In this document: one piece after another, positions 52,227 through 61,092 of the stretch
Layout of the letters: each line of letters starts with the position of its first letter
How positions within the stretch are numbered: position 1 is the first letter of the stretch
The notes under the pieces: model-generated
Databases searched by the model: none
The model's input: the letters and a program-made list of their open reading frames with translations, nothing else
What the model was told of the DNA's origin: nothing
Origin: a bacterium
Lineage (GTDB): Bacteria > Hinthialibacterota > Hinthialibacteria > Hinthialibacterales > Hinthialibacteraceae
Assembly: GCA_963662285.2 (NCBI GenBank)
Contig: CAXXMV010000001.1
Coordinates: 832,001 to 896,000 of the forward strand
DNA length: 64,000 bases
Direction: 5' to 3'
Translations under genes and position numbers: made by a program

Positions 52227-52829
52227 TTACCCTATCGAATCAGGCGGAATATACCCCGGCCTAACTGAACTCATGTCTACGATATCGCTGCCTACCCGGT
52301 AGCGGCTTCCTCCCAGGTAATAAATCAAGCAAGCTTCACCAGTCCAATTATTATCATAATAACATTGCTCGGCAGTAACGCTAAGCACTTCCCCAGTAAT
52401 AAAAGGTCTGTCACCCACCGGAGAAATATGCCTGACGCGGCATTCAATACTGGCCATACAATTGCTTATCAGCAAGGGACTGACAGATTTAGCTCGGGTC
52501 GTAGTTAAATTCAAATGGCTGATTTTATCAACATCACGACCCGAATGAACTCCACAAAAATGGACAGCCTTGACCATTGAACCACCAGGGACGCCTAACA
52601 GGAAATCGCCGCTCTTACGTATAAAATGATAACTTATATTGCTCGGTTTAAGTGAAATTCCAATCAAAGGTGGATCCAAACTCATGGGTGAATACCAGAC
52701 AAGCGGCATCAAAGAATTATTGCGTCCACTTCGTGAAGAAAGGAGCAGCAACGGATGAGTTAGCAGCATTTTGGAAAAACAATCATTTGCAACTACAACC
52801 ATAAGAGTAACATCTCTTTCATTTATCAT
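52227..52829 (-). CDS. Flavin reductase-like (flavoredoxin family) protein
   Basis: SLDPPLIGI, CGVHSGRDVDK, IECRV, ITGEV. Confidence 0.85.
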   Translation of the reverse strand: MINERDVTLMVVVANDCFSKMLLTHPLLLLSSRSGRNNSLMPLVWYSPMSLDPPLIGISLKPSNISYHFIRKSGDFLLGVPGGSMVKAVHFCGVHSGRDVDKISHLNLTTTRAKSVSPLLISNCMASIECRVRHISPVGDRPFITGEVLSVTAEQCYYDNNWTGEACLIYYLGGSRYRVGSDIVDMSSVRPGYIPPDSIG

Positions 52830-52948: not shown

Positions 52949-52977
52949 TTGCATTTCCGCGCTGCAATAATTACAAT
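52949..52977 (+). promoter_or_regulatory. Sigma-70-type promoter of the J-TPR/grpE/hsp70 operon
   Basis: TTGCAT-17 bp-TACAAT, about 75 bp before the GTG start. Confidence 0.5.
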
Positions 52978-53051
52978 CGCTCATACCGTACATATTTCTT
53001 AGCGCCAAATTCCTGGCGTTAACAGACCAAAAGAAATGAGAGTAAACGACT

Positions 53052-54326
53052 GTGGCTACTGAAAGCACAACACTGACTCGTTCACCATATCAAATACTTA
53101 AGATTTCACGCTGGTCAGATGTGGAAGAAATTAAAGCAAAATACTTCCAACTAGTGAAACAATTCAATCCTGAATATTTCCCTGATGAGTTTATAGAAAT
53201 TCGTACGGCTTATGATATATTAAAAGATGCAAATACTCGTGCGGCAACCGATGTGGAACTAATGGTAACGCCGCCAGCTTTCCATTGCCCGGATTTCCCT
53301 GACTTCCCAAAACAGATTTTATCCCTTTTCAAGTTAAATCAAGAATTAAAAACGCTCTGCGGAGACCGATCGCTTGAAAGCCTAACCGGGCAGGACCGTG
53401 AACAGGCCACCCATCTTTTGCGCGGAATCGGGCTTTATCACAGCTCTCACGATCAGATGGAAGAAGCCGTTCAATCCTGGGAGCAAGCCATTGCTCTTGA
53501 CGCCGATGATCAGTCATCTCTTCAAAACATTTATTTCGCCCGTTGGGCGGAAGGATGCAAAGCGGCTAATGAAGAACAATATGAAGCCGCCGAAAAATGT
53601 TTTACCGAGATTATCGAAAAAGGGGTGCAGCACGGCGCATTATATCAAAACCTTGCGCTTGCTCAGGAGAAACAAGGTAAAAAAGAAGAATCAGCCGAAT
53701 CCTGGAGTAAAGTTCTTGAATTCTACAATAAAGAACTTAAAGTAGACCCGGAAAACGATTACCTCAAACATTTCGTTATTGCAATTCATAAATATACCGG
53801 AGGAAAATTCATGGAAAGCGGACAAAATGTCTCAGTCGGCAATTCAGGATCTTCCAAAGAACTGGGATACGCCTGCATCCAAAAGGGCAACTGGAAACAA
53901 GCAGTTGACGCCTTCGAACGCGCCCTGAACGAAAACGAAGATGATGTAGATATTCTTTGCCAACTTGGCTGGGCTTATCTCAACACCAATGCTCATAACA
54001 AAGCGTTCCACATGTGGAATAGCGCCATGAAGAAAGCGCCGGGGAAACGGTCAATAGTTGATCATCTCGTGCGCGGCTATTCGGTGTTTGGCAAAAGACT
54101 CAAAGAACAGCGCATCTTCAATCAAGCTCTGGTTCAATTTAAAATAGCACTTAAGCATGAACCAAATAACCTTGAAATTAGACTTCTTTTGGCTGATACA
54201 TATTTCCAGATGAGAAATTTCACATCTTCGTTGCTAGAATACCAGAAAGTAATTGATATAGAGCCAAGAAACAAAGTTGCTCGTCAGGGTCTTAGAGAAG
54301 CTAAACGGCTTGGAGGGCTTCGATAA
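53052..54326 (+). CDS. J-like domain (HPD replaced by NPE) + multiple TPR repeats
   Basis: PYQILKI..EEIKAKYFQLVKQFNPE..FIEIRTAYDILKD..R J-domain signature; many TPR helices. Confidence 0.85.
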   Translation: MATESTTLTRSPYQILKISRWSDVEEIKAKYFQLVKQFNPEYFPDEFIEIRTAYDILKDANTRAATDVELMVTPPAFHCPDFPDFPKQILSLFKLNQELKTLCGDRSLESLTGQDREQATHLLRGIGLYHSSHDQMEEAVQSWEQAIALDADDQSSLQNIYFARWAEGCKAANEEQYEAAEKCFTEIIEKGVQHGALYQNLALAQEKQGKKEESAESWSKVLEFYNKELKVDPENDYLKHFVIAIHKYTGGKFMESGQNVSVGNSGSSKELGYACIQKGNWKQAVDAFERALNENEDDVDILCQLGWAYLNTNAHNKAFHMWNSAMKKAPGKRSIVDHLVRGYSVFGKRLKEQRIFNQALVQFKIALKHEPNNLEIRLLLADTYFQMRNFTSSLLEYQKVIDIEPRNKVARQGLREAKRLGGLR

Positions 54327-54853
54327 TGGGGTGGTTCCAAGGATCAATTGATCCCAAAGAGGCCTTTCCCATAGAAAACCTTCCCCTTGAGACAATGGGA
54401 AACCAAAAGGGTGATGCTCTTGCTTTACTATATAATCAACCTAAAGAGAATAATAATTCAGTTGGCAGACTTCCCGCTCCAATAAATATTGACAGACCGA
54501 AAGAAGATTTTTTCCGTAGAATTCTGCCAATTTTAGACGGTTTTGATAATATATTCCGCTATGCGGATCGAGCTAATCTTGAGGGTGATGATACTCTTTC
54601 AAATTGGTTGAAAACTCTTGAGACTTTATATAGAAGACTCTTATCTACTCTAGAAAAAGAAGGTCTTGTTGCGATAGAATCAAAAGGATTGCCGGTGGAT
54701 TTCTCGATACACGAAGTGATCGATACGCGTGAAGATCCAAATGTTTCAGATAACACTATTATCGAAGAGATGGTTAAAGGTTATAAGTTTGGCAGGAGAG
54801 TTTTAAGAGACGCAAAGGTTATTGTCGCCAAAAAAATCATACCGGGAAAATAA
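54326..54853 (+). CDS. grpE: GrpE-like nucleotide exchange factor (short form)
   Basis: LPILDGFD, LEKEGL..I..KG..D..HE, IIEEMVKGY..RVLRDAKVIV; TAATG overlap with the upstream gene. Confidence 0.85.
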   Translation: MGWFQGSIDPKEAFPIENLPLETMGNQKGDALALLYNQPKENNNSVGRLPAPINIDRPKEDFFRRILPILDGFDNIFRYADRANLEGDDTLSNWLKTLETLYRRLLSTLEKEGLVAIESKGLPVDFSIHEVIDTREDPNVSDNTIIEEMVKGYKFGRRVLRDAKVIVAKKIIPGK

Positions 54854-55006
54854 TCCGGTGAATTTATAGTATATTATTCAATAGTATTTCTTAGTATTGA
54901 TTAAAGATATTAATGCAGCTGGAGAAAACCAGCGACAAAAATTTAATTTTAAGATAATATATGATATCCGATGTATATAAAAAAGCATCGGGGGAGCAGG
55001 TATTTC

Positions 55007-56761
55007 ATGGCACGTATTTTGGGCATTGATCTTGGAACAACCAATTCAGTTGTTGCGATTATGCAAGGGGATTCACCAAGCATTATCCCCAATGATGTAG
55101 GAGACCGCATAACACCCTCCATCGTCTATTTTCAGGATAATGGATCTCTTTTAGTCGGGAAAAAAGCCCGTCGCGCTGCTGGTCTAAATCCGGAAAGATC
55201 CGTCTTTTCCATTAAAAGACACATGGGCACAGCGTTTAGAGTAGAAGTAGACGGTCAAAAACACACTCCTCAAGAAATCTCCGCCGCTATCTTGCAAAAG
55301 ATGAAAGTCGACGCCGAAAATTATTTAGGCGAAGAATGCACTCAAGCCGTCATTACGGTTCCTGCTTATTTTACCGATGCTCAACGCCAGGCGACTCGTG
55401 ACGCTGGTCAGATTGCCGGATTCCATGTTCGCCGCATCATCGACGAACCTACGGCTGCTGCAATTTCTTATGGTCTTGAAAAAGAACAAGATCAAGTCCT
55501 TATGGTCTATGACCTTGGCGGTGGAACCTTCGACGTTTCCATCATCGAGATGGTGGAAAGCGTATTTCAGGTTCTTTCCATCAAGGGTAACAACCACTTG
55601 GGCGGTGACGATTTCGACCAGAGGATCGTTGAATATCTGATTAAGCGATTCAAGGAAAAAGAAGGCATTGATCTATCCAATGACACCAAAGCGCTCTTCC
55701 GGCTCAGAGAAGCGGCTCAAGAAGCTAAAATTGAACTTTCTGGAGTAACCAATACGCAAATTATTATTGATGCGATTGCAATGACCTCCAGTGGTCCTTT
55801 GACTTTAGATGAAGAACTCACCCGCGCAAATTTCGAGAGTTTAGTACACGATCTCTTGGAAATGACTATCGAACCAACTCGGCAAGCCATTAAAGACGCT
55901 GGATTAACTCCTGAAGATATTTCTAATGTACTTCTGGTTGGTGGCAGCACGCGCATCCCGGCGGTTCAACAGTTAGTCGCCAAAATCGTTTCCAAAGAGC
56001 CTCGAAAAGACGTCAATCCTGATGAATGCGTCGCCTTGGGCGCTGCGGTTCAAGCCTCTATCCTGGCGCCGCTGGATGATGAATTGGAAATGACCTCTGC
56101 TGACCAGATCAGCAAAGACGGTCCGGTTATCGTCCACTTGACGCCTTTCTCACTTGGCGTAGGGTTATCTGACGACCGTTATGGGGTTCTAATTGAGAGA
56201 AACTCCACTTATCCGACTGAAGCGCGTGATATGTTCACCACTACCCGTGATTTCCAGTCCGCCATCAGCTTCCCGATTTACGAAGGTGAAGAGATGATCG
56301 CTTCTCAAAACACATTTCTGGATATGCTGCGCATCGACGATATTCCACCGGCGCCGCGCGGCGTGCCTAGGATTGAAGTCACCTTCCGTCTGAATCAAGA
56401 CCGTATTCTTGAAGCAACCGCCAAAGATTTAACCACTAACAGAGAAATCAGCATTACCGTTCTTTCTACCGATAACCGGTTGACTGAAGAGCAAGTTGGC
56501 GATCTACGTATAAAAGCCCATGAACGCGTTAATGTTATGGTTGATAAACGTAAAGAAGATGAGATGGCCAACGAAGTGGACAGCCTCGTGTTTCGCGCCA
56601 GACGACTCTTCACCGACCAGGAAGATCCTCTGGCAGAAGAGGCCATGCAGATTATAAGAGAATTGGAAAATGCGCGTAATGAATCCAATGAAGAGTCTGT
56701 ACAAGAGAAATTCGGTCAACTCTCTGAAATGCTGGCTAAATACGATTCAGACGACTATTGA
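55007..56761 (+). CDS. Hsp70/DnaK paralog (non-canonical)
   Basis: GIDLGTTNS, TVPAYF, EPTAAA, YDLGGGTFD, GGSTRIP, PAPRGVPRIEVTF; atypical linker and short lid. Confidence 0.93.
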   Translation: MARILGIDLGTTNSVVAIMQGDSPSIIPNDVGDRITPSIVYFQDNGSLLVGKKARRAAGLNPERSVFSIKRHMGTAFRVEVDGQKHTPQEISAAILQKMKVDAENYLGEECTQAVITVPAYFTDAQRQATRDAGQIAGFHVRRIIDEPTAAAISYGLEKEQDQVLMVYDLGGGTFDVSIIEMVESVFQVLSIKGNNHLGGDDFDQRIVEYLIKRFKEKEGIDLSNDTKALFRLREAAQEAKIELSGVTNTQIIIDAIAMTSSGPLTLDEELTRANFESLVHDLLEMTIEPTRQAIKDAGLTPEDISNVLLVGGSTRIPAVQQLVAKIVSKEPRKDVNPDECVALGAAVQASILAPLDDELEMTSADQISKDGPVIVHLTPFSLGVGLSDDRYGVLIERNSTYPTEARDMFTTTRDFQSAISFPIYEGEEMIASQNTFLDMLRIDDIPPAPRGVPRIEVTFRLNQDRILEATAKDLTTNREISITVLSTDNRLTEEQVGDLRIKAHERVNVMVDKRKEDEMANEVDSLVFRARRLFTDQEDPLAEEAMQIIRELENARNESNEESVQEKFGQLSEMLAKYDSDDY

Positions 56762-56802: not shown

Positions 56803-56831
56803 ATGAGACGGCTAATCAGCCGTCTCATTTC
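56803..56831 (+). terminator. Hairpin terminator after hsp70
   Basis: atgagacggct-aatc-agccgtctcat, perfect 11-bp stem, weak T-tract. Confidence 0.7.
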
Positions 56832-57038: not shown

Positions 57039-58631
57039 ATGGATACCCTCCAGTGTCCTGCATGTGGAACCATAAACTCCGGACAAGCGTTAGTTTGCCA
57101 GGAGTGCAATGAAGACCTCAATACAATCAAAAACGTTCTCGATACAGCTAAACAGCATTACAACGAGGCGCTTGCCTTAGCGCAGAGTAATAGATTGGAT
57201 GAAGCTATCGGCCAGATAGAAGCGGCGTTAGCCATAACATCACATGATCCGAACTATCATCTCCTTCTGGGAACTCTGAATGCTCAAAAAGAGAACTATG
57301 ATGGCGCCATCATGGCATGGGAACGCTGCCTGTCTATAAATCCCGATATTGAAAAAGCTTACCACAACATCGAGAAAGCCCATCAAATGCACGAGGAGGA
57401 AGAATACGAGCAACGCAAGCGCCCTTTCCTGCTCGGCGCCATAGGCGCAGGCGTTGCGGCTGTTATATTCCTCTTTTCCACCGGATTCTTAGCTGGACAG
57501 CTCTATTTCAAGAATAGAGAAATCACTCAACTTACGTCAATCCTGGAAACAAAAAACAATGAGACCAATGACTGGCGTCAAAAATTTATCACCCTTAGTG
57601 AGAATTTCCCCAAAGAAGGTCTACAAGGGCTTCTAGCCCAAGTTTCACAATGGAAAACGCTGGCGGAACAACGTCAAATAACCATTGAACAAACTGAAGC
57701 ACGCTATAAAACCAGCATTGATCAACGTAATCAGGAAATTCAATCTCGACAGCAAAAAATCCAGGAATTAGAAAGTCAGATTGCCAATCTGCGCAAATCG
57801 ATAACTCAAATCAATCCATTAAGACACTCTCTCGTGGTCAAAAGCAAGGATATTGAAAAAAAAGATACTGTTATAAATGCGCAAAATGCCAAACTACTGG
57901 AAAACAAGAATCAAATCAGTCTGCTATCACAACAATTAGCAGCAGCGCAGCAACAAATCGATGCGAATAAAGCCAGTCATCAGGATGCTCTGACCCAAAC
58001 GCAATCCAACGCTGGTAAAGAGATCGAAAACCTGCGTATAGAGATACAAAAACTGCTCGACCAAATTGCCGAGAAAGATCGTGAATTGACCGACTTGGAA
58101 TATGCCGATAATTTAGTCGTAGAAGCGATTCAGAAATTTGAAGACAATAAATTCACCGAATCTTCATCTCTGGTTCAAAATGCTCTGGAACGGAGAAAAG
58201 ATCACGCTCCTTCTCTTTATATCCAAAAAAATCTTCAAACAATTCTTTCTAATCCAGTAGAAGAGGAAGTCTATCGACAGATTGCAGCAAACCGACCATC
58301 AATGCGTACTCAAATTCGTACAGAATTAGCCAACCGGAAAATAAACCAGGCCATGAACTATCTTGGCCAAGGAGAATTCGATAACGCTATTAAAACCGCT
58401 CAGACCACCTTGGCTTTTCTCTCTGCTGATTCAAACGAAGCAAAACAATGCAACCAGCTAATTCAAAAAGCCGAAAAAGATGAAGCGGATATAACCCGTC
58501 AACTTTCTGAAGCGCGTATCTACATTGACGACAAAAATTTCAGAAAAGCCAAAACGCTACTGAAAGATATAATTAAGCGGTCGCCGTCTTTCACCGAAGC
58601 AAGCGTTCTTTTAGGCCAGATTGATCAATAA
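57039..58631 (+). CDS. Zn-ribbon + TPR + TM + long coiled coil + TPR protein (paralog of 30288-31880)
   Basis: CPAC..CQEC; HYNEALALA..LDEAIGQ..LLGT.AQK..AWERCL..NIEKA; TM; coiled coil; YADNLVVEA. Confidence 0.82.
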   Translation: MDTLQCPACGTINSGQALVCQECNEDLNTIKNVLDTAKQHYNEALALAQSNRLDEAIGQIEAALAITSHDPNYHLLLGTLNAQKENYDGAIMAWERCLSINPDIEKAYHNIEKAHQMHEEEEYEQRKRPFLLGAIGAGVAAVIFLFSTGFLAGQLYFKNREITQLTSILETKNNETNDWRQKFITLSENFPKEGLQGLLAQVSQWKTLAEQRQITIEQTEARYKTSIDQRNQEIQSRQQKIQELESQIANLRKSITQINPLRHSLVVKSKDIEKKDTVINAQNAKLLENKNQISLLSQQLAAAQQQIDANKASHQDALTQTQSNAGKEIENLRIEIQKLLDQIAEKDRELTDLEYADNLVVEAIQKFEDNKFTESSSLVQNALERRKDHAPSLYIQKNLQTILSNPVEEEVYRQIAANRPSMRTQIRTELANRKINQAMNYLGQGEFDNAIKTAQTTLAFLSADSNEAKQCNQLIQKAEKDEADITRQLSEARIYIDDKNFRKAKTLLKDIIKRSPSFTEASVLLGQIDQ

Positions 58632-58927: not shown

Positions 58928-59695
58928 ATGTATTCAGATCAGATCAAATTATTGCTTGAGCAGGTTCGTGGAAATAGCATCTCCATTGAAGACGCTATGA
59001 CTGCTCTCAAACACCTGCCCTATGAAAGTTTAGGATTCGCCACAATTGATCACCACCGCTCATTGCGGCAGGGAGTACCTGAAGTAATATTCTGTCAAAA
59101 CAAGACGCTTGAAGAGATTACTGAAATTATTCATTGTCTACAAAACAAGAATCAGCCTGTACTGGCAACCAGAGCAACGCAGGAAACCTTTGAAGCATTA
59201 AAAGATATTTTCCCTGATGGTGAATTTTATGAACGATCCCGCGTAATCACCATCGGAGGTGATCATGCGCCTACTCCAGTTGGAAATGTTTTAATCGCCT
59301 GCGCCGGGACTTCTGATCTGCCGGTTGCTGAAGAAGCCGCTGTCACTGCTCAGTTCACCGGATCGAACGTGACCCGGTTAACCGATGTCGGCGTAGCAGG
59401 CATCCATCGTTTATTGGGTCGCCTGGATATTATCCACCAGGCCAATGCTATTGTGGTGGTTGCAGGTATGGAAGGCGCTTTAGCCAGCGTTATTGGAGGT
59501 TTAGCCGAGGCGCCTGTTATCGCCACGCCCACCAGTGTGGGATATGGCGCCAGTTTCGGCGGCATTGCTGCTCTTCTATCAATGCTGAACAGTTGCAGCG
59601 CAGGCGTTACGGTAGTTAATATAGATAATGGTTTTGGAGCCGGATTCGCGGCCAGTTTGATCAATAAACGCATCTGCCAAGCCAAAACGGAGTAA
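58928..59695 (+). CDS. larB: Nickel-pincer cofactor biosynthesis carboxylase LarB (PurE-like)
   Basis: DHHRSLRQGVPEV, AGTSDLPVAEEA, DVGVAGIHR, AGMEGAL, PTSVGYG, VVNIDNGFGA. Confidence 0.92.
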   Translation: MYSDQIKLLLEQVRGNSISIEDAMTALKHLPYESLGFATIDHHRSLRQGVPEVIFCQNKTLEEITEIIHCLQNKNQPVLATRATQETFEALKDIFPDGEFYERSRVITIGGDHAPTPVGNVLIACAGTSDLPVAEEAAVTAQFTGSNVTRLTDVGVAGIHRLLGRLDIIHQANAIVVVAGMEGALASVIGGLAEAPVIATPTSVGYGASFGGIAALLSMLNSCSAGVTVVNIDNGFGAGFAASLINKRICQAKTE

Positions 59696-59700
59696 TCAGG

Positions 59701-61092
59701 ATGATAGATTCTTTTTCCCAACTCAATCCATTCAGGCGAAGTTATGCCCTCCTGCTTAAATGTTGTATTCTGCTAATCATTTCTTTGTCCACGCTTACGC
59801 TTTATGCTGATATAGTCACGCTTAAAGACGGCGCCACTTTGCGCTGTCAGGTGATCCGGGAGACCCAGTCGCCTGCCACAGGTGAACGCTATATCGAAAT
59901 CCGCATCGCCCAATCGATTATTTGGATTAACCGGGATGCAGTGGATCGGATCGACTCCACTCCGCCGCCTCAATCCACCAGCCTTGAAATGCAACAATTG
60001 ATAAAACGTTTGACTGCGGAAGGCATATTGGTTCCTTCAGTTCAAAAACAACTAGATTTTGACCAGAAGATAGTTCCAGAACCAGAAAAAGAGCAGAAAA
60101 TCCCCATAACTATCACAGACCTGCGCGGTTGGGCTTATATCTACCAAAACGAAAAGGCCATGAATGATGGACAGCGCATACTAGTGGCCATTGGTGATAC
60201 ATTGCCGCTTGGTTATATCCTTTCGCTTTCTCCTAATACCCGTATGACAATGAACTTAAAAGATGTGGGAGACATTGGGCTGGAAGCGGGAGCAGAAATT
60301 CGCTTTGATGAGATGACCAAAAACTCTTCAATGCTAAAATACACAATAGCGCTGCGACTGGAAAAAGGGCGCTGCTGGTTTGATATTAAATCAACCGAAA
60401 ATGTCATCCTCCGCACCAATTCAGTTCGCTGCATAATCCAGGAAGCTGTATTCTTTACCAATACTACAGATAAACCCGGCGCAATAGATATTACATACCT
60501 AAGAGGGAAAGACAGTCTCCGCTTTTCCAGAAACAGATTATCCGAAGAACCATCTATGGTTGATGTCGGGCAGATTCTGAAAGTTGATCCGGCGTCAAAT
60601 AAACTCCCTGTAGAAGCGGCATCCAACATTTCCGATCTGGAAGAGACAATAAAAACTTGGAAGGATTGGCAGCCTGAAAAATTGGATATTGCCATCGAAC
60701 AGGTTATTCCGCCATTAATGACCTTCCCTTCATTCCGGGCGCTGCCAGCGTTGCATCCTTACAAATTGAATATTGATCAAAGTTTAATGCTGCCGCCCGA
60801 AACCCGCAGTTTGGGTGAGATTCTCAACGTCTACAAAAAAGCGCTGCAACAATACCGAATCGACACTGGCGCTTATCCAACTTTTGATCAGGGTTTGGAC
60901 GCATTATTTCAAAGTAATGATAAAGCCGGATGGAAGGGTCCATACGTTTCGTTGGCTCTGCCGCGGCGTGATTCATGGGGTGAACCTTTCTTATATGATA
61001 TTTACACTGAAAAAGGGCGTACTTACGTAGATATCCGCAGCAAAGGACCCAACCGCAAAGATGATAAAGGATTGGGAGATGATTTCCGTTAG
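59701..61092 (+). CDS. Exported protein: N-terminal beta domain + FecR-like domain + C-terminal GspG-like domain
   Basis: Signal/TM then ADIVTLKDG; FecR-like ALRLEKGRCW..RTNSV; ALQQYRIDTGAYPT.DQGLDAL..WKGPY..DSWGEPFLY..SKGP..GDD. Confidence 0.7.
   Translation: MIDSFSQLNPFRRSYALLLKCCILLIISLSTLTLYADIVTLKDGATLRCQVIRETQSPATGERYIEIRIAQSIIWINRDAVDRIDSTPPPQSTSLEMQQLIKRLTAEGILVPSVQKQLDFDQKIVPEPEKEQKIPITITDLRGWAYIYQNEKAMNDGQRILVAIGDTLPLGYILSLSPNTRMTMNLKDVGDIGLEAGAEIRFDEMTKNSSMLKYTIALRLEKGRCWFDIKSTENVILRTNSVRCIIQEAVFFTNTTDKPGAIDITYLRGKDSLRFSRNRLSEEPSMVDVGQILKVDPASNKLPVEAASNISDLEETIKTWKDWQPEKLDIAIEQVIPPLMTFPSFRALPALHPYKLNIDQSLMLPPETRSLGEILNVYKKALQQYRIDTGAYPTFDQGLDALFQSNDKAGWKGPYVSLALPRRDSWGEPFLYDIYTEKGRTYVDIRSKGPNRKDDKGLGDDFR

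What the first reader, a model, noticed from the sequence alone, without database searches (positions are those of the whole stretch)
52949..56761. Self-contained, non-canonical Hsp70 machine: J-like(NPE)-TPR + short GrpE + divergent DnaK
Seen: three co-oriented genes (TAATG coupling of J-TPR to grpE) behind a sigma-70-like promoter, with no CIRCE. All three partners deviate from the canonical forms. The J domain has FNPE where HPD is normally invariant and carries TPRs instead of G/F and Zn-finger regions. GrpE lacks the long N-terminal coiled coil. The Hsp70 has IIDEPT where DnaK has IINEPT, and its hydrophobic linker (DVLLLDV in DnaK) is replaced by an acidic insert plus PVIVHL. Established: HPD contacts the Hsp70 linker/NBD surface around R167/N170 (E. 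coli numbering) to trigger ATP hydrolysis. Inference: co-evolved changes insulate this triad from the housekeeping DnaK/DnaJ, making it a dedicated chaperone with TPR-mediated client selection. I know of no characterised function for it.
Basis: partly seen in the sequence, partly recalled or inferred. Interest (0 to 1): 0.85.

Follow-up and report, generated by a model that had tools for sequence, protein, structure and literature searches.

The report
Hsp70 operon with histidine-less J-domain
This bacterium has, besides its normal DnaK chaperone, a second Hsp70 with its own exchange factor and a TPR helper protein whose J-domain always lacks the histidine thought to be indispensable, and the Hsp70 carries matching changes where that motif normally acts.

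Summary
The three genes are real. They are J-TPR (53052-54326), a short GrpE (54326-54853, TAATG overlap) and a divergent Hsp70 ("Hsp70b", true start 55007, end 56761). A conserved fourth gene follows (57039-58631): zinc ribbon, three TPRs, one membrane helix and a coiled coil.

The genome also holds a canonical grpE-dnaK, a full DnaJ and a CbpA-like protein. The NPE motif is not a private mutation. Of 166 family members, none has His and all 166 have Glu (N/S-P-E in Hinthialibacter-type sequences; DPE, PPE, EPE or DQE in Sumerlaeota-type).

All 40 Hsp70b-type proteins carry N170D, D393H, E217Q/R and D477R/K (E. coli numbering). They keep R167, Q378, P419 and the catalytic residues. On the J side, the basic residues that pair with E217 and D477 are lost.

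Hsp70b forms its own deep clade, separate from housekeeping DnaK. The operon is syntenic across the phylum. A complex model docks the NPE loop on the linker in the canonical way (ipSAE 0.64, best control 0.00); this may reflect likeness to the solved DnaK-J structure.

Function and client are unknown, and insulation and TPR client choice are untested. The promoter is not above chance. Earlier notes of this scan describe the same module on other genomes. I found no publication describing it.

The parts
53052..54326 (+). J-TPR co-chaperone gene (424 aa): N-terminal J-like domain, linker, two TPR blocks (residues 113-249 and 268-421), basic C-terminal tail KRLGGLR
   Evidence: ORF. Pfam DnaJ plus TPR families. 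AF2 model with pLDDT 91. Orthologues in 35 of 35 genomes of the phylum.
53085..53255 (+). J-like domain (residues 12-68), four helices
   Evidence: Pfam DnaJ at residues 12-67. Helices 12-16, 24-37, 44-58 and 60-67 in the model. It is the most conserved part of the protein between the two phyla: 38% identity against 11-28% elsewhere.
53166..53174 (+). N39-P40-E41, the motif in the place of HPD
   Evidence: His is absent in all 166 sequences and Glu is present in all 166. In the complex model, residues 39-42 touch linker residues 374-377 of Hsp70b.
54326..54853 (+). Short GrpE (175 aa), start overlapping the J-TPR stop (TAATG)
   Evidence: No NCBIfam GrpE equivalog reaches its cut-off; the best is 60.5 against 137.
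55007..56761 (+). Hsp70b (584 aa from the revised start; the longest ORF begins at 54971)
55442..55444 (+). Codon for Asp146 (= Asn170 of E. coli DnaK)
   Evidence: Asp in 40 of 40 Hsp70b-type proteins. Asn in 29 of 29 canonical DnaKs of the phylum and in E. coli DnaK, HscA and HscC.
56072..56140 (+). Acidic insert (LDDELEMTSADQISKDG) followed by the interdomain linker P-V-I-V-H-L (= V389-V394; His377 = Asp393)
   Evidence: His in 40 of 40 Hsp70b-type proteins; Asp in 29 of 29 canonical DnaKs.
56803..56828 (+). 11-bp hairpin 42 nt after the Hsp70b stop; terminator-like but with a weak T tract
   Evidence: Read. Fold energy -19.1 kcal/mol, z -4.4, and 0 of 200 shuffles as stable. The terminator scan did not list it.
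57039..58631 (+). Conserved neighbour (530 aa): zinc ribbon, three TPRs, one transmembrane helix (about 128-157), long coiled coil
   Evidence: Pfam. Hydrophobic segment and orthologues. It follows Hsp70b in 14 of 20 extended phylum loci (one of them a partial match) and in 16 Sumerlaeota-type or metagenome loci.

Best explanation
This is a dedicated second Hsp70 machine. It has been inherited vertically since before the Hinthialibacter-type and Sumerlaeota-type lineages split.

Hsp70b is an active ATPase. It depends on its own short GrpE for nucleotide exchange. It is partnered by a J-TPR co-chaperone whose J-like domain docks at the usual NBD/linker/SBD-beta site, but through a remodelled interface.

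On the J side:
- Glu41 stands in for Asp35 towards the retained Arg167 and Gln378.
- The His of HPD is dispensable.
- The basic residues of helices II and III are gone.

On the Hsp70 side:
- The linker Asp393 has become His.
- Asn170 has become Asp.
- The acidic partners Glu217 and Asp477 are neutralised or reversed.

The likely consequence is a pair that works with itself and poorly with the housekeeping DnaK/DnaJ. The altered peptide pocket (A429T, V436I, I438F), the TPR blocks and the neighbouring membrane-anchored zinc-ribbon/TPR protein suggest a narrow client set handled at the cytoplasmic face of the membrane.

Shown: the genes, their conservation and linkage, the residue states, the separate clade, and the presence of a canonical system. 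Inferred: ATPase stimulation without His, orthogonality, membrane location and client.
For: Separate canonical system. The own genome has a grpE-dnaK pair, a class-A DnaJ and a CbpA-like protein. Canonical DnaK at 71% identity or more appears in 31 of 35 phylum genomes.

Linkage. J-TPR > GrpE > Hsp70b is found in 28 of 30 short loci and 19 of 20 extended loci. The same order holds on Sumerlaeota-type contigs.

Motif. The Hinthialibacter-type set has N 33 and S 13, with P and E in 46 of 46. Four distant orthologues are SPE. The Sumerlaeota-type set has DPE 108, PPE 10, EPE 1 and DQE 1 of 120.

Hsp70b residue states in 40 of 40 sequences:
- Changed: D170, H393, V390, Q/R217, R/K477, Y418.
- Kept: R167, Q378, P419, D8, K70, E171, T199.
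- The 29 canonical DnaKs of the phylum keep N170, D393, E217 and D477.

J side: DnaJ K26/R27 correspond to F/Y/V/I and H/E, and K48 to I/M. The genome's own DnaJ keeps basic residues at these positions.

GrpE dependence. The segment that HscA and HscC lack at the GrpE signature is present in Hsp70b (feature named in PMC8215388).

Trees. Hsp70b-type rows form one clade. It is cut off from DnaK plus HscA by a branch with support 93 (unstarred) in FastTree and 95* in IQ-TREE quick. Its internal order mirrors that of the canonical DnaKs.

Conservation. The J domain is the best-conserved region of J-TPR.

Complex model. Score 0.64 against a best control of 0.00. That mark was reached by 58 of 80 solved complexes and 2 of 110 mismatched pairs. 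The runs agree in at least 72% of contacts, and partner pLDDT is at least 83. The contacts are J residues 32-52 with Hsp70b 183-188, 352-354, linker 374-377, 401-405 and 463-464.
Against: In every system tested, replacing the His or Asp of HPD abolishes stimulation. Only HPE is regarded as tolerated (PMC8215388 passages; PMC13254874 section 7). A His-less J-domain may therefore not stimulate at all.

The reciprocal changes define two sister clades, so they count as one or two events, not as statistical covariation.

The complex pass may come from likeness to the solved DnaK-J-domain structure (5NRO, named in PMC10410713). It shows likeness, not binding.

Arg143 (= R167) was not among the confidently placed contacts.

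In one genome (G027) the J-TPR-like gene is unlinked from grpE-hsp70b. On four Sumerlaeota-type contigs (L119-L122) no J-TPR was found upstream.

The fourth gene lies behind a hairpin with its own promoter-like site, so co-transcription is not shown.

There is no expression or biochemical data.
Confidence: 0.6

Rival explanations
1. The J-like domain is a non-stimulating tether or regulator, a 'type IV' J protein like Pam16. It brings Hsp70b to TPR-bound partners or holds it in check. ATP hydrolysis is triggered by the client alone or by the housekeeping DnaJ or CbpA-like protein.
For: The His equivalent to H33 is absent in all 166 sequences. H33Q/A and D35N/A variants do not stimulate in tested systems (simulations). 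The Pam16 precedent is described in PMC13254874 section 7. The genome has two HPD J proteins available.
Against: Glu at the D35 position, Pro34, Tyr25, Phe47 and the Hsp70 residues R167, Q378 and P419 are all kept. That is what one expects if the loop still acts at the trigger site.

Hsp70b has lost E217 and D477, which pair with basic residues of canonical J-domains. This argues against service by DnaJ.

A dedicated GrpE implies a full ATPase cycle.
Confidence: 0.25
2. Hsp70b is an ordinary stress or redundancy paralogue of DnaK. It does general protein folding, and the motif changes are neutral drift.
For: DnaK duplication is common; 6.4% of bacterial genomes have two or more copies (PMC11019930 passages). 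Hsp70b just reaches the NF001413 DnaK cut-off (660 against 648).
Against: Hsp70b forms a deep separate clade. It falls below the TIGR02350 cut-off (634.8 against 822.55). The changed interface and pocket residues are invariant in 40 of 40 sequences across two phyla, which is constraint rather than drift. It has its own co-chaperones in fixed order.
Confidence: 0.1
3. The cassette is part of a mobile conflict or anti-phage system that uses an Hsp70/GrpE pair.
For: An earlier scan note (e1-2084361) names Hsp70/GrpE themes in conflict systems as the closest known; I did not check this. There is one weak PADLOC hit, PDC-M61B at 19.2 bits.
Against: The cassette is present in all 35 genomes of the phylum, and its tree mirrors that of the housekeeping DnaK. 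The J-TPR, GrpE and fourth protein have no PADLOC match. No effector-like gene is conserved next to it.
Confidence: 0.03

Closest known systems
E. coli HscC (Hsc62) with DjlB/DjlC
   Same: Both are specialised Hsp70s with their own J proteins, and in both the Asp of HPD is Glu. HPE was read in DjlB and DjlC and is stated. Both lack DnaK residues 76-101. Both have short lids and lengths of 550-590 aa. [quoted passage not shown]
   Different: HscC partners keep the His, while here it is never His. HscC lacks the GrpE signature and needs no GrpE; Hsp70b keeps that segment and has its own GrpE. HscC keeps N170 and D393. HscC has the L1,2 insertion and the helix-B deletion, and Hsp70b has neither. 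Identity is 31% to HscC against 46% to DnaK.
Canonical DnaK-DnaJ-GrpE
   Same: Same three-part logic and same folds. The catalytic residues and the allosteric residues R167, Q378 and P419 are kept. The predicted J docking mode is the canonical one.
   Different: HPD is replaced by N/S/D/P-P-E. The G/F, zinc-finger and C-terminal domains of DnaJ are replaced by TPRs. The GrpE stalk is truncated. N170D, D393H, E217Q/R and D477R/K are present, with an acidic insert before the linker, an altered peptide pocket and no disordered C-terminal tail.
Eukaryotic TPR-containing J proteins DNAJC7 (TPR2) and DNAJC3 (p58IPK)
   Same: A J-domain and several TPR units sit in one polypeptide. In DNAJC7 a TPR domain binds the Hsc70 EEVD tail, and this is needed for J-domain action (PMC13254874 passages).
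   Different: The domain order is reversed: J is N-terminal here. HPD is absent here. PMC10410713 reports the DNAJC3/C7 architecture only in eukaryotes. A conserved Hsp70b C-terminus (..YETADY) exists, but no TPR-tail contact was named by the complex model.
'Type IV' J proteins without HPD (Pam16, DNAJB13, Plasmodium exported JDPs)
   Same: They have the J fold with a changed tripeptide. The review says it 'remains enigmatic' whether such deviations are accidents or selected.
   Different: Here the variant sits in a conserved operon with its own Hsp70 and GrpE. Glu is invariant, and the Hsp70 side is changed too. That points to selection and gives a defined partner to test.
Second DnaK of Myxococcus xanthus (MxDnaK2)
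   Same: It is a non-essential second DnaK with a largely separate client set enriched in membrane proteins (PMC11019930 passages). From recall, not from a call: it is also called SglK and lies next to a GrpE-like gene, grpS.
   Different: The two Myxococcus DnaKs have almost identical linkers. Both are PRK00290-type DnaKs; no His-less J partner came up in the passages I read.

Membership tests
Hsp70 (Pfam PF00012) | Score over the gathering cut-off across NBD, linker and SBD | tested here: met
   598.4 bits against 20.6. D8, K70, E171, T199, P143 and R151 are kept in 40 of 40 sequences.
DnaK equivalog (housekeeping DnaK) | Reaches the curated equivalog cut-offs and clusters with housekeeping DnaK | tested here: not met
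   TIGR02350 gives 634.8 against 822.55. NF001413 gives 660 against 648, only just over. Hsp70b forms a separate clade from the phylum's DnaKs and E. coli DnaK. A true DnaK lies elsewhere in the genome.
DnaK equivalog (housekeeping DnaK) | Conserved linker DVLLLD | tested here: not met
   The linker is PV[IV][IV]H[LM] in 40 of 40 sequences and D393 is His. The linker motif is named in PMC13580251.
HscC-type Hsp70 | GrpE signature segment absent, no GrpE partner | tested here: not met
   The segment is present in the alignment where HscA and HscC have gaps. A cognate GrpE is encoded upstream.
HscC-type Hsp70 | Deletion of DnaK residues 76-101 in NBD lobe I | tested here: met
   According to PMC8215388 many non-proteobacterial DnaKs share this deletion, so it is not diagnostic.
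HscC-type Hsp70 | 4-8 residue insertion in loop L1,2 of SBD-beta and 9-residue deletion in helix B | tested here: not met
   HscC shows both in alignment A2 and Hsp70b shows neither.
HscC-type Hsp70 | J partner with HPE | tested here: inconclusive
   Glu is shared, but the His is absent in all 166 sequences. DjlB and DjlC have HPE.
J-domain protein | J-domain fold (Pfam DnaJ over cut-off, four helices) | tested here: met
   37.7 bits against 27.8. Four helices are present in the AF2 model.
J-domain protein | HPD tripeptide between helices II and III | tested here: not met
   NPE in the window. 0 of 166 relatives have HPD or HPE.
J-domain protein | Stimulates the ATPase of its Hsp70 | not testable with these tools
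   There is only a docking model. It needs biochemistry.
GrpE | Pfam GrpE over cut-off, four-helix-bundle helices plus beta domain | tested here: met
   83.5 bits against 25.8. The model has helices 57-82 and 89-111 and strands 114-169.
GrpE | Long N-terminal paired helix (stalk), and NCBIfam equivalog score | tested here: not met
   Only profile positions 60-165 are matched. Residues 1-56 have low confidence with no long helix. The best NCBIfam equivalog score is 60.5 against 137. The length of the E. coli stalk is recalled, not measured here.
DNAJC7/DNAJC3-like TPR J proteins | TPR clamp binding of the Hsp70 C-terminal tail | tested here: inconclusive
   The tail is conserved. No TPR or tail residue was among the confident contacts, which is not evidence against binding.

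The most novel reading that the evidence does not exclude
This may be a naturally orthogonal Hsp70/J pair in which ATP hydrolysis is triggered without the His of HPD.

The trigger would be rebuilt as follows. The acidic charge moves from the linker to the NBD strand (D393H with N170D). Glu replaces Asp towards R167. The electrostatic steering contacts (K26/R27-E217 and K48-D477) are erased or reversed on both partners.

The machine would work at the inner membrane, docked through the zinc-ribbon/TPR anchor. The conserved Hsp70b C-terminus would act as a bacterial counterpart of the EEVD-TPR docking seen in eukaryotes.
Probability: 0.35. Interest if true: 0.85.

Novelty: new variant of a known kind. 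Interest (0 to 1): 0.66.

Why it matters
HPD is treated as the defining and indispensable feature of J-domains. A 2026 review states that whether natural deviations are accidents or selected 'remains enigmatic'.

Here a His-less variant is fixed in two candidate phyla. It is always next to its own Hsp70 and GrpE, and it comes with reciprocal changes on the Hsp70. This gives a defined, expressible pair on which to test three things: whether and how an Hsp70 can be triggered without the His, what sets partner specificity between co-resident Hsp70 systems, and how to build orthogonal chaperone pairs.

It also adds a membrane-anchored TPR protein as a possible docking partner. Such partners are known so far from eukaryotic organelle import.

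Tried and rejected
**TPR-tail docking idea.** The Hsp70b C-terminus is conserved..YETADY/EAAEF in 19 of 20 Hinthialibacter-type sequences, and ..ELEAAG-like in Sumerlaeota-type. The full-length complex model named only J-domain contacts, so I do not claim this.

**Promoter.** Not above chance.

**CIRCE.** Absent from the window, and at chance level in the whole genome, so uninformative.

**RNA evidence.** No RNA holder was listed. The two runs holding the stretch are of unrecorded kind. I did not lay reads.

**Fold search of J-TPR.** It returned only generic TPR superhelices with TM 0.20-0.31.

**PADLOC.** One 19-bit hit only.

**Genome-collection scan with the J-TPR alignment.** It used a single peptide pattern and returned 21 loci, whose titles name only uncultured bacteria or 'Candidatus Omnitrophota' MAGs; many are the same contigs as the phylum loci. 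It says little about other phyla.

**Rows dropped or lost.**
- From the 59 hits, I left out 7 partial proteins (P0034, P0038, P0039, P0045, P0046, P0047, P0050) and 7 weak TPR-only hits (P0053-P0059) before alignment A1.
- My motif patterns failed on some rows (printed 'None'). These were covered later by alignment A6.

**Literature.** Searches found no description of this module. Barriot et al. 2020 (J Mol Biol) is not in the library; I saw it only as a citation, and it or its supplements may list this architecture. Supplements were closed.

Full report
**What is there.**

One search lists three co-oriented ORFs on the + strand: 53052-54326 (424 aa), 54326-54853 (175 aa) and 54971-56761 (596 aa).

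Pfam gives the following:
- First ORF: a DnaJ domain at residues 12-67 (37.7 bits, cut-off 27.8) followed by many TPR families.
- Second ORF: GrpE (83.5 bits), covering only profile positions 60-165 of 165.
- Third ORF: HSP70 (598 bits).

The first stop and the second start overlap as TAATG. Orthologues of the Hsp70 begin at the residue encoded at 55007, and a GGGGGAG Shine-Dalgarno lies just upstream. I therefore take 55007-56761 (584 aa) as the gene and call it Hsp70b.

A stable 11-bp hairpin follows its stop. Then comes a fourth gene, 57039-58631. It encodes a zinc ribbon, three TPRs, one transmembrane helix at about 128-157 and a long coiled coil.

- FNPE aligns with KYHPD of DnaJ, and IIDEPT aligns with IINEPT of DnaK.
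- The linker is not replaced. It reads P-V-I-V-H-L against V-L-L-L-D-V, so it is still hydrophobic but with Asp393 changed to His. An 11-residue acidic insert precedes it.
- The GrpE N-terminus (residues 1-56) is modelled with low confidence and has no long helix. Helices 57-82 and 89-111 and the beta domain follow. The genome's canonical GrpE matches Pfam positions 6-164.
- The promoter claim does not hold up.
- CIRCE is absent from the window. It is also at chance level in the whole genome, so its absence says nothing here.

**The rest of the genome.**

The 7.29-Mb assembly has a canonical grpE-dnaK pair (PF00012 883 bits; GrpE 161 bits). It also has a class-A DnaJ with zinc-finger and C-terminal domains, and a CbpA-like class-B protein. 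Hsp70b is therefore not the housekeeping DnaK.

It is 46% identical to the genome's own DnaK and to E. coli DnaK, 34% to HscA and 31% to HscC. It scores below the TIGR02350 cut-off and only just above that of NF001413.

**Distribution and linkage.**

The word-index search with J-TPR gave 59 hits. Of these, 52 are relatives at 40-88% identity, some named Candidatus Hinthialibacter or Omnitrophota by their sources.

In the genome collection, all 35 genomes of the phylum have a match. J-TPR is followed by GrpE and Hsp70b in 28 of 30 short loci; one exception is cut by a contig end and the other is G027. The same order holds in 19 of 20 extended loci.

In G027 the grpE-hsp70b pair is split over two contig ends, with the zinc-ribbon gene downstream, and the J-TPR-like gene lies on a third contig.

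Canonical DnaK at 71% identity or more was listed in 31 of the 35 genomes. One further genome has a 62%-identical copy with four in-frame TGA. Three fragmented assemblies showed none.

The fourth gene follows Hsp70b in 14 of the 20 extended loci, one of them a partial match.

A metagenome scan with the nearest outside relative of Hsp70b (P0210, 58% identical) found the same gene order on many contigs. The J-TPR proteins of that set are named Candidatus Sumerlaeota or BRC1 by their sources, with 179 proteins at E of 1e-20 or better. On four of these contigs (L119-L122) no J-TPR was seen upstream.

**The motif.**

- In 46 aligned Hinthialibacter-type proteins the tripeptide is N (33) or S (13), then P (46) and E (46).
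- Four distant members of the phylum have SPE.
- In the 120 Sumerlaeota-type proteins listed, it is DPE 108, PPE 10, EPE 1 and DQE 1.
- On metagenome contigs I read DPE 10, PPE 5 and DNE 2.

No member has His and every member has Glu. In contrast, the 31 canonical grpE-dnaK-dnaJ loci in the same scan where my pattern read the motif all had HPD, together with I[IV]NEPT and [VI][LV]L[LV]DV.

The J domain is the best-conserved part of J-TPR between the two phyla, at 38% identity against 11-28% for the other regions.

**The Hsp70 side.**

I aligned 40 Hsp70b-type proteins with 29 canonical DnaKs of the phylum and the three E. coli Hsp70s.

| Position (E. coli DnaK) | Hsp70b-type (of 40) | Canonical DnaKs of the phylum (of 29) |
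|---|---|---|
| N170 | D, 40 | N, 29 |
| D393 | H, 40 | D, 29 |
| L390 | V, 40 | L, 29 |
| E217 | Q 37, R 3 | E, 29 |
| D477 | R 36, K 4 | D, 29 |
| D479 | N, 39 | D, 29 |
| I418 | Y, 40 | I, 29 |
| N147 | T, 40 | N 26, D 3 |

Kept in all 40 are R167, Q378, P419, T417, N415 and the catalytic and allosteric residues D8, K70, P143, R151, E171 and T199.

Pocket residues change as A429T, V436I and I438F in all 40, and the arch residue M404 is variable.

Published structure and simulation work says the following (PMC8215388 passages; preprint 10.1101/2020.03.25.008359; PMC13012618):
- H33 bonds the backbone of linker L391.
- P34 packs on P419.
- D35 bonds R167 and Q378.
- K48 pairs with D477.
- Y25 contacts E217; helix-II residues Y25 and K26 are among the J residues that contact NBD residues including E217.
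- R167 also pairs with D393 and D481 within DnaK.

On the J side, the positions of DnaJ K26, R27 and K48 are F/Y/V/I, H/E and I/M in the family. The genome's own DnaJ keeps basic residues there. So three contact sites are altered on both partners, while the Pro/P419 and acid/R167/Q378 contacts are kept.

**Phylogeny.**

A FastTree tree of 121 rows, rooted on HscC, and an IQ-TREE quick tree of 48 rows under a mixture model agree on three points:
- Hinthialibacter-type and Sumerlaeota-type Hsp70b form one clade. Support is 99* for the Hsp70b rows with P0060/P0210, and 99* again when the outlier P0141 is added; it is 92 for the 13 Hsp70b rows and 99* with P0141.
- This clade is separated from the set holding the phylum's DnaKs, E. 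coli DnaK and HscA, with support 93 (unstarred) and 95* respectively.
- E. coli HscC lies on the other side, on a very long branch.

Within the clade the branching order follows that of the canonical DnaKs, as expected for vertical descent.

**Docking model.**

I submitted full-length Hsp70b with J-TPR residues 9-424, each with its own alignment.
- The median score was 0.64 (runs 0.62, 0.67 and 0.64) against a best control of 0.00.
- That mark was reached by 58 of 80 solved complexes and 2 of 110 mismatched pairs.
- The runs agree in at least 72% of contacts, and the partner's pLDDT is at least 83.

The confident contacts are J residues 32, 35-36, 39-42, 44, 47-48 and 51-52. They touch these Hsp70b residues:
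- 183-186 and 188, which correspond to the E. coli 208-217 region;
- 352-354;
- 374-377, which correspond to linker L390-D393;
- 401 and 403-405, which correspond to T417-K421;
- 463-464, which correspond to D479-A480.

This is the canonical mode. Because a DnaK-J-domain complex has been solved (5NRO, named), the pass shows likeness rather than proof of binding. No TPR residue and no C-terminal residue of Hsp70b was named.

**Reading.**

The best-supported account is a dedicated, vertically inherited second Hsp70 system. It has a cognate short GrpE and a J-TPR co-chaperone acting at the canonical site through a remodelled interface. It probably has a narrow client set, and it possibly works at the membrane with the zinc-ribbon/TPR protein. 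I put this at about 0.6.

Stimulation without His, orthogonality to DnaK/DnaJ, membrane location and TPR-based client choice are all inferences.

The main rival, at about 0.25, is that the J-like domain only tethers or regulates, as Pam16 does. A generalist paralogue (0.1) and a conflict system (0.03) fit the data poorly.

**Comparison with what is known.**

HscC with DjlB/DjlC is the nearest described system. It has HPE, the lobe-I deletion, a short lid and a membrane link. Hsp70b fails three HscC features: it has the GrpE signature, it lacks the L1,2 insertion, and it lacks the helix-B deletion. Its partners also lack the His.

Reviews state that only HPE seems tolerated and that other deviations are enigmatic. 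They note that about 1% of J-domains are HPE and that bacterial DnaK derivatives are largely unexplored.

Searches found no description of this module. Barriot et al. 2020 and all supplements could not be read.

Earlier notes of this scan describe the same module in another Hinthialibacter-type genome and in a Sumerlaeota genome. They also describe related five-gene cassettes with a separate TPR scaffold, a His-less J protein, GrpE, Hsp70 and a zinc-ribbon protein in other phyla. I reached the Sumerlaeota link independently. I did not test the wider cassettes.

Noticed in passing
L200 (G000:C1:205000-217000), about 620 kb upstream of the window on the same contig: A further divergent GrpE-like gene (212 aa, 20 bits) is followed by an Hsp70-like gene split into two ORFs of 223 and 325 aa. 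A 663-aa Transposase_29 gene (671 bits) sits between them, so this looks like an IS-disrupted third Hsp70 module.
   Followed up: partly
L201 (G000:C8:1295500-1302500) and L202 (G000:C6:966000-971500): There are two more weak GrpE-like genes. One (195 aa) overlaps the start of a very divergent 536-aa Hsp70-like protein (72 bits). The other (234 aa) lies behind an unannotated 438-aa ORF. The genome thus has several GrpE/Hsp70-like pairs.
   Followed up: partly
window 58928-59695 and 59701-61092: An AIR-carboxylase-family (LarB-like) gene and a 463-aa protein ending in a T2SS protein-G domain follow the fourth gene. They recur in 11 of 20 phylum loci but in only 1 of the 33 metagenome loci compared (L119-L151), so this is lineage-level synteny rather than part of the module.
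   Followed up: partly
window 52227-52829 (- strand): A flavin-reductase-like gene lies divergently upstream of J-TPR. It is conserved there in 9 of 20 phylum loci.
   Followed up: no
G001:C1:528696-530525 (not fetched as a locus): In one genome of the phylum, the DnaK-like match at 62% identity carries four in-frame TGA codons. This could be a pseudogene, an assembly problem or TGA recoding.
   Followed up: no
G011:C2, G004:C45, G005:C14 and others: Some genomes of the phylum hold a third full-length DnaK-like gene, at 60-62% identity to the canonical one or at 46-49% but on contigs other than the J-TPR operon.
   Followed up: no
window 54303-54323 (J-TPR residues 418-424) and 54362-54385 (GrpE residues 13-20): Two short conserved end motifs are unexplained. 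J-TPR ends in a basic-hydrophobic tail: KRLGGLR here, and LKLRR or IRLRA in the Sumerlaeota type. The short GrpE starts with an F-P/V-I-D/E-x-x-P motif. Either could be a pseudo-substrate for the Hsp70b peptide pocket.
   Followed up: no
window 56741-56758 (Hsp70b C-terminus): Hsp70b has no disordered tail. It ends in a conserved acidic-aromatic motif: ..YETADY/EAAEF in 19 of 20 phylum orthologues, KYDSDDY here, and ..ELEAAG-like in the Sumerlaeota type.
   Followed up: partly
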